This document shows, piece by piece, positions 132 through 48,800 of a DNA stretch of 64,000 nucleotides (position 1 is its first letter; every line of letters begins with the position of its first letter). This stretch comes from the human T2T-CHM13v2.0 reference genome, Homo sapiens. Position numbers and translations under genes: made by a program. Below the pieces are notes generated by a model. It made no database searches and was not told the DNA's origin. It saw only the letters and a list, made by a program, of their open reading frames with translations. The DNA is taken from assembly GCF_009914755.1 (NCBI RefSeq), contig NC_060925.1. One strand, 5' to 3'.

Positions 132-2510
132 TTAAAAAAAAATTTATTTCCACAGGTTTTTGGGGAACAGGTGGTATTTGGTTACATGACTAAGTAGTTT
201 GTGAGATTTTGGTGTGCCCATCACCCGAACCGTATATGCTGAACCTGATTTGTAGTCTTTTATCCCTCACCCCCCTCCCACAGTTTCCCCCTGCATCCCC
301 AAAGTCAATTTCGTCATTCTCATGCCTTTGCATCCTCATAGCTTAGCTCCCACTTACAAATGAGATCATTCGATGTTTGGTTTTCCATTCCTGAGTTACT
401 TCACTTAGGCTGATAGTCTCCAGTTCCATCCAGATTGCAGCAAATGGCATTAATGCCTTCCCTTTTATGGCTGAGTAGTATTCCATGATATATATATATA
501 TATATATATATATATATATCCACATACTACGGTTTCTTTATCCGCTAGTTGATTAATGGGCATTTAGGTTGGTTCCACATTTTTGCAATTGCGAATTGTG
601 CTGCTGTAAACATGCGTGTGCAGGTATCTTTTTTGTATCATGACTTCTTTTCTTCTGGGTAGATACTCAGTAGTGGGATTGCTGAATCAAATGGCAGTTC
701 TTCTTTTAGTTTTTTAAGGAATCTCCACACTGTTTTCCATAGTGGTTGTACTAGTTTACATTCCCACTAGCAATGTAGAAGTGTTCCCTTTTCACTTCAT
801 CAATGCCAACATCTATTGTTTTTTGATTTTTTGACTAGGGCCATTCTTGCAGAAGTAAGGCAGTATTGCATTTTGGTTTTGATTTGCATTTCCCTGATCA
901 TTAGTGATGTTGAGCATTTTTTTCATATTTCTTGGCCATTTGTTTATCTTCCTTTGAGAATTGTCTTTTCCTGCCCTTAGCCCACTTTTTCATGGGATTG
1001 TTTGTTTTTTTCTTGCTAATTTGAGTTTGAGGTAGATTCTGGATATTAGTCCTTTGTCAGAGGTATAGATTATGAAGATTTTTCTCCCACTCTGTGAGTT
1101 GACTGTTTACTCTGCTGACTGTTCCTTTTGCCGTGCAAAAGCTCTTTAGTTTAATTAGGTCTCAGCCATTTATATTTGTTTTTACTGCATCTGCTTTTTG
1201 GTTCGTGGTCATGAAATCCTTGCCTAAGCCGGTGTCTAGAAGGGTTTTTCCTGTGTTATCTTCTAGAATTTTTCTAGTTTCAGGTCTTTGTCCTTGATGT
1301 GTTTCAGGACTTAAGTCCTTGACCCATCTTGAGTTGATTTTTGTATAAGGTGAGAGATGATCCAGTTTCATTCTCCTACATGTGACTTGCCAATTATCCC
1401 AGCACCATATGTTGAATAGGTTGTCCTTTCCCCACTTTATGTTTTTGTTTGTTTTGCCAAAGATCAGTTGGCAAAATACTTACAGTTGGCTGTAAGTATT
1501 TGGGTTTATTTCTGGATTCTCTATTCTGTTCCGTTGGTCCTTGTGCCTATTTTATACCAGTGCCATGCTGTTTTGGTGACTGTGTCCTTATAGTGAAGAG
1601 AAGAGAATGAAATGAAGAGAGTGGATATCTTTGTCTTGTTCCAGTTTTCAGACAGAACGCTTTAAACTTTTCCCCATTCAGAACTACGTTAGCTGTGGGT
1701 TTGTCATAGATGACTTTTATTGCATTGAGGTATGTCTCTTGTCTGCCAATTTTGCTGAGAGTTTGAATCATAAAGGGATGCTAGATGTTGTCAGATGCTT
1801 TTTCTACATCTATTGAGATGATCATGTGATTTTTGTTTTTAATTCTGTTTATGTAGTGTATCACATTTATTGACTTGTGTATGTTAAACCATCCCTGCAT
1901 CCTTGGTATGAAACCCATTTGATCATGGTGGATTATCTTTTTGATATGTTGTTGGATTTGGTTAGATGTATTTTGTTAAGAATCTTTGCATCTGTGTTCA
2001 TCAGGGATGTTGGTCTGTAGTTTTCTTTTTTGGTTATATCCTTTCCTGGTTTTGGTCTTAGGGTATTACAGGCTTCATAGAATGATTTAGGGAGGATTCT
2101 CTTTCTCTATCTTGTGGAATAGCGTCAAAAGGATTGGTACCAATTCTTCTTCCAATGTCTGATACAATTCAGCTGTGAATCCTTCTGGTTCTGAACTTTT
2201 TTTTGTTGGTAATTTTTAAATTACCATTTTAATCTTGCTGCTTGTTATTGGTCTGTTTAGGGTATCCAGTTCTTCCTGATTTAAGCTAGGAGGTTTGAAT
2301 CTTCCCAGGAATTTATCCATATATTCTAGGTTTTCTAGTTTTTGCATGTAAAGTTGTTCATAGTAGCCTTGAATGATATTTTGTCTTTCGGTGGTGTCAG
2401 GTGTAATAGCTCCCATTTTGTTTATCTTTTCAAAGAACCAGCTTTTTTTGTTTCATTTATCTTTTCTATTTTTTTATTTTTGTTTCAATTTCATTTAGTT
2501 CTGCTCTGAT
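132..2510 (-). mobile_element. L1PB-family LINE-1, 5'-truncated, with internal deletions
   Basis: Minus-strand ORFs 1162-1371, 1547-1771 and 2216-2416 resemble L1 ORF2 ([25 protein letters not shown]); L1PB-type 3' UTR near 140-530. Confidence 0.9.
488..519. repeat. (AT)16 microsatellite inside the L1
   Basis: Perfect AT run read directly. Confidence 0.95.
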
Positions 2511-2595
2511 GAGAATGCTACATGTAAAGCAGCACACTGGTTGGTGTGCCATATATCTGAGCGATTGGCTTTGCCTTCAAGAAAACTGTTGTCCA

Positions 2596-2737
2596 GGTCT
2601 GGCGTGGTGCCTCATGTCTGTAATCTCAGCACTTTGGGAGGCTGAGGTGGGAAGATTGCTTGAGCCCAGGAGTTTGAAGTTTGAAACCAGCCTAGGCACT
2701 ACAGCAAGACCTCGTTTCAAAAAAAAAAGAAAGAAAA
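2596..2737 (+). mobile_element. Free left Alu monomer (FLAM-like)
   Basis: Single Alu arm (TGTAATCTCAGCACTTTGGGAGG...CTTGAGCCCAGGAG) with A-rich tail. Confidence 0.85.
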
Positions 2738-45656: not shown

Positions 45657-45854
45657 TAGGAAAAAGGCACTATACTACAGAATGTTAGAGCCTCTTCAAA
45701 TTTAAATTTCTATAAGATGTATTTACATAATTGCAATCTATAAACTGAACATTATTAGTGTAATCAGTATGTTAAGCCAGCCTAGCTTGTGATGTGGTCC
45801 AATTGCAATTTTTCTTGTGTAATCTTTTATTTTTCTTCAATTTTATTTTTCTTC

Positions 45855-48800
45855 AGTTTCTTTATTCACTCATTGATTCATGGGCATTTGGGTTGGTTCC
45901 ATGATTTTGCAGTTGTGAATTGTGCTGCTATAAACATGCATGTGCAGGTATCTTTTTCATATAATGACTTATTTTCCTCTAGGTAGATACCCAGTAGTGG
46001 GATTGCTGGATCAAATGGTAGCTCTCCTTTTAGTTCTTTAAGGAATCTCCATAGTGTTTTCCGTAGTGGCTGTACTAGTTTACATTCCCATCAGCAGTGT
46101 AGAAGCATTCCCTGATCACCACATCCACACCAACATTTGCTCTTCTTTGATTTTTTGAATTTTTCGAATATGGCCATTCTTGCATGAGTAAGGTGGTAGC
46201 ACATTGTGGTTTTGATTTGCATTTCTGTGGTCATTCAGTGATGTTGAACATTTTTCATATGCTTGTTGGTCATGTGTATATCTCCTGTTGAGAATTGTCT
46301 ATTCATGTCCTTAGCCCACTTTTTCATAAGATTGTTTTTTCTTGCTAATTTGAGTTTGTTTTAGATTCTGGATATTAGTCTTTTGTCAGAGGTATAGATT
46401 TGAAGATTTTTCTCCCACTCCGTGGGTTGACTGTTTACTCTGCTGACTGTTCCTTTTGCCTTGCAAAAGCTCTTTAGTTTAATTAAGTCCCAGCCATTTA
46501 TCTTTGTTTTTATTGCATCTGCTTTTGGGTTCTTGGTCATGAAATCCTTGCCTAAGCCATTGTCTAGAAGGGTTTTTCCTGTGTTATCTTCTAGAATTTT
46601 TCTAGTTTCAGGTCTTAGTCCTTGATGTGTTTCAGGACTTAAGTCCTTGACCCATCTTGAGTTGATTTTTGTGTAAGGTGAGAGATGATCCAGTTTCATT
46701 CTCCTACATGTGACTTGCCAGTTATCCAGCACCATTTGTTGAATAGGGTGTCCTTTCCCCACTTTATGTTTTTGTTTGCTTTTTCAAAGATCAGTTGGCT
46801 GTAAGTATTTGGGTTTATTTCTGGATTCTTTATTCTGTTCCATTGGTCTATGTGCCTATTTTATACCAGCACTATGCTGTTTTGGTGACTGTGGCCATAT
46901 AGTATAGTTTGAAATCAGGTAGTGTGATACCTCCAGATTTGTTCTTTTTGCTTAGTTTTGCTTTGGCTATGCAGGCTGTTTTTTGGTTCTATTTGAATTT
47001 TAGAATTGTTTTTCCCAATTCGGTAAAGAATGATGGTGGTATTTTGATGGGGATTGTGCCGAATTTATAGGTTGCTTTTGGCAGTATGGTCATTTTCACA
47101 ATATTGATTCTTCCCATCCATGAGCATGGGATTTGTTTCCATTTGTTTGTGTCATCTATGATTTCTTTCAGCAGTGTTTTGTAGTTTTCCTTGGTAGAGG
47201 TCTTTCAACTCCTTGGTTAAGTGTATTCCTAAGTTTTTGTTTTGTTTTGTTTTGCAGCTATTGTAAAAGGAGTTGAGTTCTTGATGCTCCGCTTGGTCAC
47301 TGTTGGTATATAGAAGAGCTACTGATTTGTGTACATTAATCTTGTATCCGAAAACTTTGCTGAATTCTTTTATCAGTTCTAGGAGCATTCCGGAGGAGTC
47401 TTTAGGGTTTTCAAGGTAAATGATCATAGCATCAGCAAACAGTTACAGTTTGACTTCCTCTTTACCAATTTGGATACCCTTTATTTCTTTCTCTTGTCTG
47501 ATTGCTCTGGCTAGAACTTCCAGTACTGTGTTGAAGAGGAGTGGTGGGAGTGGGCATCCTTGTATTGTTCCGGTTCTCGGAGGGAATGCTTTCAACTTTT
47601 CCCCATTTAGTATTATGTTGGCTGTGGGTTTGTCATAGATGGCTTTTACTACATTGAGGTATGTCCCTTGTATGCTGATTTTGCTGAGATTTTTAATCAT
47701 AAAGGGATGCTGGATTTTGTCAAATACTTTTTCTGCATTTATTGAGATGATCATGTGATTTTTGTTTTTAATTCTGTTTATGTGGTATACCACATTTATT
47801 GACTTGTGTATATTAAACCATCCCTGAATCCCTGGTATGAAACCCACTTGATCATGGTGGATTATCTTTTTGATATGTTGTTGGATTTGGTTAGCTAGTA
47901 TTTTGTTAAGGATTTTAGCATCTATGTTCATCAAGGATATCTGTCTGTAGTTTTCTTTTTTGGTTATATCCTTTCCTGGTTTTGGTATTAGGGTGATGCT
48001 GGCTTCATAGAATGAATTAGGGAGGGTTCCATCATTCTCTACCTTGTGGGATAGTGTCAAAAGGATTGGTACCAATTCTTTTTTGAATATCTAGTAGAAT
48101 TCTCCTGTGAATCCCTCTGGTGCTGGACTTTTTTTGTTGGTAATTTTTAAATTACCATTTCAATCTTGCTGCTTGTTATTGGTCTATTTAGGGTGTCTAA
48201 TTTTTCCCAATTTAAGCTAGGAGGGTTGTATTTTACCAGGAACTTATTTATCTCTTCTAGGTTTTCTAGTTTATGCATGTAAAGGTGTTCTTAGTAGCCT
48301 TAAACGATCTTGATTTCAGTGGTGTCAGTTGTAATACCTCCTGTTTTTGTTGCTTAGTGAGGTTATTTGGATTTTCTCTTCTTCTTTTCTTGGTTAATCT
48401 TGCTAGTGGCCTATCAATTTTATTTATCTTTTCAAAGAATCAGCATTTTGTTTCATTTATCTTTTGTATTTTTTGGTGGTGGTGTTTCAATTTCATTTAG
48501 TTCTGCTCTGACCTTGGTTATTTTCTTTCTTCTGTTTCTTGTTTCTCTAGTTCCTTGAGGTGTGACCTTAGAATGTCAGTTTGTGCTCTTTCAGTCTTTT
48601 TGATGCAGGCGTTTAGGGCTATGAACTTTCCTCTTAGCACTGCTTTTGCTGTATCCCAGAGGTTTTTATAGGTTGTGTCATTATTGTTGTTCAGTTTGAA
48701 TAATTTTTTAATTTCCATCTTGATTTCATTTTTGACCTAATGCTCATTCGGGAACAGGTTGTTTAATTTCCATGTATTTGCATAGTTTTGAAGGTTCCTT

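What the first reader, a model, noticed from the sequence alone, without database searches (positions are those of the whole stretch)
985..46895. Two L1PB copies 45 kb apart share non-consensus indels in a near-identical tract (ectopic gene conversion)
Seen: 1233-1392 and 46561-46720 match at 158 of 160 nt, whereas 601-720 and 45925-46044 differ at 14 of 120. Both carry the same internal duplication (TTTCAGGTCTT.GTCCTTGA TGTG TTTCAGGACTTAAGTCCTTGA) and translate as KLDHLSP...[10 protein letters not shown](Q/L)[14 protein letters not shown]. The recalled L1PB ORF2 reads KLDPHLSP...KDLNLRPETIKILEDNIGK. Shared oddities appear to extend over ~985-1590 and ~46315-46895. Inference: non-allelic gene conversion in cis long after insertion, implying the two ends of the CDC73 3' region once paired and recombined.
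Basis: partly seen in the sequence, partly recalled or inferred. Interest (0 to 1): 0.7.

Follow-up and report, generated by a model that had tools for sequence, protein, structure and literature searches.

The report
Old LINE-1 to LINE-1 gene conversion
Two dead LINE-1 copies 45 kb apart at the human CDC73 gene share a roughly 500-base patch with an insertion found nowhere else in the genome, likely copied from one into the other by DNA repair tens of millions of years ago; it is a clean example of a known process.

Summary
Real, and of a known kind. Copy A (62-2509, CDC73 intron) and copy B (~45850-51360) are minus-strand L1s. The 158/160 and 14/120 counts are exact. The 29-nt insert motif occurs at 2 places genome-wide, against 7,818 for a control L1 29-mer. 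Over A 986-1594 the copies differ at 34/584 sites versus 177/1256 in the flanks. They are reciprocal best hits and one clade (100/92) only in that tract. The shared changes are decay-type (stop, frameshift, mostly non-synonymous), so not a subfamily trait. No function is implied.

The parts
62..2509 (-). Copy A, the donor: 5'-truncated old L1 (3' UTR plus 3' part of ORF2) in a CDC73 intron, antisense to the gene; marker subgroup S2
   Evidence: self-BLAST; flanking direct repeat 46-61 / 2510-2525, 13 of 16; S2 state at 10 of 11 strict sites
45850..51360 (-). Copy B, the acceptor: long L1 lacking the 3' end that A has, ~16 kb past the CDC73 3' end; subgroup S1 except in the tract. Its 5' end is weakly placed
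   Evidence: S1 at 7 of 7 strict flank sites and at 7 of 7 sites in the stretch A lacks
982..1502 (-). Donor side of the tract (left edge 943-1058, right edge 1404-1588, 95% ranges of a rough model)
46316..46811 (-). Converted tract in B; hard right limit 46921 because B is S1 again at 46922
1290..1307 (+). Shared 18-nt insertion in A, made of short copies of the sequence on both sides
   Evidence: 0 of 53 other copies; motif at 2 places genome-wide
46618..46635 (+). The same 18-nt insertion in B
1358..1359 (+). Site of the shared 3-nt deletion (B 46686-46687)
   Evidence: 0 of 53 other copies; one residue missing vs ORF2p
1233..1392 (+). Best-matching core (158/160 with 46561-46720); possibly a second, younger conversion, not established
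1594..1595 (+). Junction of a ~630-nt deletion private to A (B 46904-47532 has no counterpart in A)

Best explanation
About 0.5 kb of ORF2 in L1 copy B carries the private marks of L1 copy A 45 kb away, likely because a germline break in B was repaired by copying from A (one-way, non-crossover gene conversion), probably 20-40 million years ago. Shown: the tract, its uniqueness to these two copies, the decay-type nature of the shared changes, and B as the only mosaic. Inferred: a double-strand break with strand invasion and synthesis-dependent annealing; nearness as the reason A was used among thousands of similar copies; about 92-94% identity between the copies at the time; the date. Since then the two copies have drifted apart independently (5.8%). 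No function is proposed.
For: Motif at 2 places vs 7,818 for a control. Reciprocal best hits in the tract: 832 vs next 740 bits, 838 vs 686, core 310 vs 209. In the flanks A is absent from B's top 40 and B is only 18th non-self hit of A. Rare shared substitutions: 12/556 in the tract vs 1/422 and 0/740 in the flanks; maximum 6 among 1,484 other pairs. A+B form a clade 100/92 in the tract and in 0% of bootstrap trees of either flank. Shared rare changes: 8 non-synonymous, 1 stop, 2 synonymous after dropping two alignment artefacts, plus a 1-nt deletion. B reads S1|S2|S1|S1 along its length and none of 34 S1 copies has more than 2 of the 4 tract S2 states.
Against: No primate orthologues could be read, so date and direction rest on one genome. 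The S1/S2 split was defined from five flank markers picked after viewing. In the looser list A has the S2 state at only 7 of 13 flank sites (3 of the 6 others are one deletion) and 4 of 5 tract sites. Raw tract identity (93.2%) is below the best pair among other copies (95.0%), so identity alone proves nothing. Comparison copies were fetched by likeness to the tract, which biases the local rate. After rate correction an event at B's insertion is not firmly excluded (p 0.04-0.11; posterior 0.05).
Confidence: 0.85

Rival explanations
1. Two successive unequal crossovers between A and B (a 45-kb tandem duplication, later collapsed) left B as a B/A/B hybrid.
For: Gives exactly the mosaic seen. The copies are direct repeats. 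L1-mediated deletions and duplications are documented (PMC9675761 passages).
Against: Needs two events with breakpoints within ~0.5 kb of each other out of ~1.9 kb of shared sequence, and an intermediate duplicating the last four CDC73 exons. No trace of a duplication in the window.
Confidence: 0.06
2. B was born chimaeric: during its retrotransposition the reverse transcriptase switched to an A-derived RNA or to A's DNA and back, or A cDNA recombined into B.
For: The event is early in B's life; an age equal to B's own keeps posterior 0.05 and p 0.04-0.11 after rate correction. cDNA-mediated conversion is described for yeast elements (PMC6598467).
Against: B has fewer private changes in the tract (14/564) than in its flanks (64/1242), p 0.009 uncorrected. 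Two in-register switches are needed. CDC73 RNA carries A in the wrong orientation. An RNA route does not explain the 45-kb nearness.
Confidence: 0.05
3. The marks belong to a rare L1 source lineage, or arose twice at an indel-prone site.
For: 7 of 48 other copies have their own 1-23 nt insertions in the same 31-nt stretch (sample biased by the query). L017 groups next to A+B in the tract tree (99/91).
Against: None of those insertions has the A/B sequence. The motif has 2 hits. The shared changes include a stop and a frameshift, which an active source would not carry. The flanks belong to different subgroups.
Confidence: 0.02
4. Assembly or polishing artefact mixing reads of the two copies.
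For: Only one assembly was examined.
Against: The tract has 34 substitutions and 4 private indels between the copies; the longest identical run is 56 nt.
Confidence: 0.01

Closest known systems
Non-allelic gene conversion between Alu copies (Doronina et al. 2021, PMC8230782, passages read; Fawcett and Innan 2019, PMC6598467, parts 1-2 of 4 read; Aleshin and Zhi 2010 only as cited there)
   Same: Mosaic of subfamily-diagnostic sites in the acceptor; partial tract; older element overwriting a younger one (12 such Alu cases in PMC8230782); preference for nearby copies.
   Different: Here the element is L1, the exact donor copy is identified by private marks, and the distance (45 kb) exceeds the ~10 kb range those papers give for raised Alu conversion.
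Repair of a break in a chromosomal LINE by gene conversion with other LINEs (Tremblay, Jasin and Chartrand 2000; title in reference lists and a paraphrase in PMC3055243 only, text not held)
   Same: L1-to-L1 non-reciprocal transfer, in cis or trans.
   Different: That was an induced break in mouse cells; this is a fixed germline trace in the primate lineage.
Conversion tract ending in an L1 shared by KALX and KALY (PMC3055243, passages read)
   Same: Tree switch along an L1; repeated conversions at one place.
   Different: There the partners are X-Y homologous regions; here they are independent insertions.
L1-mediated rearrangements (TEMRs, PMC9675761, passages read)
   Same: Recombination between direct L1 repeats; median similarity 93.5% for homology-driven L1 events, close to the inferred identity here.
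   Different: Those are crossover-type deletions and duplications; here the 45 kb between the copies is intact.

Membership tests
Non-allelic gene conversion between repeats | Localised tract of raised identity between non-allelic homologues | tested here: met
   34/584 vs 177/1256 mismatches; scan above all 150 permutations
Non-allelic gene conversion between repeats | Shared derived changes confined to the tract and absent from other family members | tested here: met
Non-allelic gene conversion between repeats | Tree incongruence between tract and flanks | tested here: met
   A+B 100/92 in the tract, 0% of bootstrap trees in either flank
Non-allelic gene conversion between repeats | Non-reciprocal: only the acceptor is mosaic | tested here: met
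   B S1|S2|S1, A S2 at 10 of 11 strict sites; looser list less clean for A
Non-allelic gene conversion between repeats | Independent insertions, not a segmental duplication; no copy-number change between them | tested here: met
   different ends, A has its own flanking direct repeat; no shared unique flank in the self-BLAST
Non-allelic gene conversion between repeats | Unconverted ancestral state seen at the orthologous locus in outgroup species | not testable with these tools
   no primate genomes held (no relatives)
Non-allelic gene conversion between repeats | Single non-crossover event rather than double crossover | not testable with these tools
   both give the same inherited product
Recurrent conversion (concerted evolution) at one site | Nested tracts of different age | tested here: inconclusive
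   core p 0.16 on mismatches; 0.035, 0.058, 0.18, 0.27 under four marker treatments
LINE-1 | ORF2p homology | tested here: met
   73 aa of A match L1 ORF2p 931-996, E 1.6e-20
L1PB subfamilies | Match to L1PB1-4 consensus diagnostics | not testable with these tools

The most novel reading that the evidence does not exclude
The same pair converted twice: an old ~0.5-kb transfer raised identity and seeded a much younger 160-nt transfer (158/160), showing repeated germline pairing of two L1s across the CDC73 3' exons at 45 kb, well beyond the ~10-kb range known for Alu conversion.
Probability: 0.2. Interest if true: 0.5.

Novelty: new member of a known kind. Interest (0 to 1): 0.3.

Why it matters
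It is an unusually well-marked natural L1-to-L1 conversion, with donor, acceptor, direction, tract size and rough age readable from one genome. It shows that nearby-donor preference can reach 45 kb for long repeats, and that subfamily labels and ages of old L1s can be locally overwritten. The same test (reciprocal best hit plus private marks) could be run genome-wide to measure the distance decay of L1 conversion. A crossover between these copies would have removed or doubled the last four CDC73 exons, but at 94% identity over 0.5 kb they are a weak substrate today. No effect on CDC73 is shown.

Tried and rejected
Younger nested core: not significant on mismatches (p 0.16), borderline with markers (p 0.035-0.27); left open. 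Idea that the tract ends at, and was caused by, A's 630-nt deletion: P(right edge >=1580) is 0.05, mismatches at 1521-1594 are near flank level; rejected as unsupported. First boundary model put the left edge at ~795 and the age at B's insertion; inspection showed no shared rare marks and many private ones at 795-985, with noisy majority calls at hypermutable sites; it was refit with those sites masked. Active rare source lineage: rejected. Other repeat pairs in the window: 66 Alu pairs (mean 83%, best 88%) and the older L1 pair 15265/20527 (78%) show no comparable tract by identity (no outgroup test). Rows left out: self loci L001-L004, L033, L034 and duplicates L035, L039, L043; copies covering under 80% of a segment (47, 53 and 26 of 53 kept); sites 46486, 47290, 47341, 48061 and gapped columns were not in the table; apparent shared changes at 1015 and 1018 were dropped as alignment artefacts. 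Literature: ten searches listed no paper on this pair of elements; the library lacks most subscription papers and no supplements were read, so genome-wide conversion tables could contain it.

Full report
Observation. The two stretches are parts of minus-strand L1 elements: copy A (62-2509, bounded by a 13/16 direct repeat at 46-61 and 2510-2525) and copy B (about 45850-51360). They align over 532-1594 / 45856-46903 and 1619-2419 / 47548-48347, each at 86.7% by BLAST. A 73-residue reading of A matches human L1 ORF2p 931-996 with a 6-residue insertion and a 1-residue deletion; B reads the same way. By the hub's annotation A lies in a CDC73 intron before the last four exons and B about 16 kb past the gene's end.

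Is it more than chance? Over A 986-1594 the copies differ at 34 of 584 aligned sites (5.8%, 95% range 4.1-8.0%), against 177 of 1256 (14.1%) in the two flanks, p 7e-8. A scan over all 1,840 columns picked 1033-1520 and beat all 150 permutations. Identity alone is not proof: in the multiple alignment the best of 1,378 pairs of other copies reaches 95.0% there, above A-B at 93.2%. The proof lies in shared derived marks.

Are the marks a subfamily trait? No. The 29-nt motif across the insertion has 2 matches in 3.1 Gb at up to 2 mismatches; an ordinary 29-mer of B has 7,818. A and B are each other's best non-self hit in the tract (832 vs 740 bits; 838 vs 686; core 310 vs 209; 40 candidates scored each time). 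They are not in the flanks: A is missing from the 40 best hits of B's left flank and B is 18th among the non-self hits of A's right flank. Against 53 other copies, A and B share 12 rare substitutions in 556 tract sites, 1 in 422 and 0 in 740 flank sites; the most among 1,484 other tract pairs is 6. They form a clade (100/92) in the tract tree and in 0% of bootstrap trees for either flank. The 18-nt insertion and the 3-nt deletion are in 0 of 53 copies, a 1-nt deletion at 1550 in 1 of 53. The rare shared substitutions are 8 non-synonymous, 1 stop and 2 synonymous once two alignment artefacts are dropped, like the private changes of A (19, 1, 2). They arose in a dead copy, not in an active source. 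Against this, the site is indel-prone (7 of 48 measurable copies have other insertions there; sample biased by the query), but none has this sequence.

Direction. The other copies fall into two marker groups, S1 (34) and S2 (12), defined by five flank sites that I picked after viewing; 7 were unassigned. At sites then found by contrasting those groups, B is S2 at 5 of 5 tract sites, and outside the tract S1 at 18 of 22, S2 at 1, neither at 3. With hypermutable and gapped sites masked, B is S2 at 4 of 4 inside and S1 at 7 of 7 outside, while A is S2 at 10 of 11. No S1 copy has more than 2 of the 4 tract S2 states. In the looser list A is less clean (7 of 13 flank sites S2, three of the others being one deletion; 4 of 5 tract sites). 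B is the only mosaic, so A donated and B received.

Extent and age. A rough two-state model gives a left edge near 982 (943-1058) and a right edge near 1502 (1404-1588) in A coordinates; B is S1 again at 46922. The tract is therefore about 0.5 kb. It probably does not run to A's 630-nt deletion at 1594 (P 0.05). In the tract A has 12 shared and 20 private changes and B 13 private ones (548 sites). The event falls at 0.5-1.0 of B's age, mode 0.7-0.8; the comparison set is biased towards tract similarity, which pushes this older. An earlier unmasked fit gave a wider tract and an age at B's insertion and was traced to noisy sites. A 5.8% divergence is close to the human-macaque figure of about 6.5% (recalled), hence roughly 20-40 My. 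Subtracting later drift from the 14% flank divergence suggests 92-94% identity when it happened (inference), within the 89-100% optimum quoted in PMC8230782.

The near-identical core. 1233-1392 is the best window of the tract, and 2 mismatches in 160 is not significant once the choice of window is allowed for (p 0.16, 1,500 permutations). Adding shared marks and indels gives p 0.035 and 0.058, or 0.18 and 0.27 when adjacent differences count as one event (600 permutations each). A second, younger conversion is possible but not shown.

Mechanism. Most likely a germline double-strand break in B was resected, invaded the nearby A copy, copied about 0.5 kb and re-annealed without crossover (inferred from established repair pathways). 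With thousands of similar copies available, a donor within 45 kb points to nearness; whether on the same chromatid, the sister or the homologue cannot be told. A duplication followed by collapse gives the same product and a born-chimaera origin is not fully excluded; both are less economical. The 18-nt insertion repeats sequence from both of its sides, as templated end-joining scars do (PMC7407515 passages); it is a passenger mark that most simply arose in A first.

Relation to what is known. Conversion between transposon copies is established: mosaic diagnostic sites and raised rates within about 10 kb for Alu (PMC6598467 parts 1-2; PMC8230782 passages); L1 breaks repaired from other L1s in cis or trans (Tremblay 2000, seen only as cited in PMC3055243); a 1991 title on L1 gene conversion (reference line only); homology-driven L1 rearrangements at median 93.5% similarity (PMC9675761 passages). 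Ten searches listed nothing on this pair; supplements were not read. The name L1PB is recalled, not tested.

Verdict. A real, old, one-way L1-to-L1 conversion with donor and direction resolved: a new member of a known kind, without evident function. Interest 0.3.

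Noticed in passing
window 45812-45866: B lacks the L1 3' end that A has (A 135-526) and starts at a T-rich run beside a minus-strand AATAAA (45861-45866) that only 1 of 43 other copies shares: probably a prematurely polyadenylated L1 transcript. Flanking direct repeat weak (13/18).
   Followed up: partly
L005, L028, L030, L041, L057, L058, L060 at the site matching window 1273-1321: 7 of 48 other copies carry their own 1-23 nt insertions in the same 31-nt stretch as the A/B insertion; may be an indel-prone site in old L1 ORF2, but the sample is biased by the query.
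   Followed up: partly
window 1465-1482: A-private 18-nt insertion made of a direct copy plus an inverted copy of adjacent sequence, like a templated end-joining scar.
   Followed up: no
window 1594-1625 and 2415-2420: A has a ~630-nt internal deletion with a scrambled junction and a second ~70-nt deletion near its 5' end.
   Followed up: partly
window 15265-16163, 20527-21504: Two older L1 pieces covering the same ORF2 end, 69-78% alike to each other and to A and B; no tract of raised identity.
   Followed up: partly
L017 (G000:C1:241537003-241540570): Groups next to A+B in the tract tree (99/91) and shares 4-5 rare changes with each; probably a close S2 relative of A.
   Followed up: no
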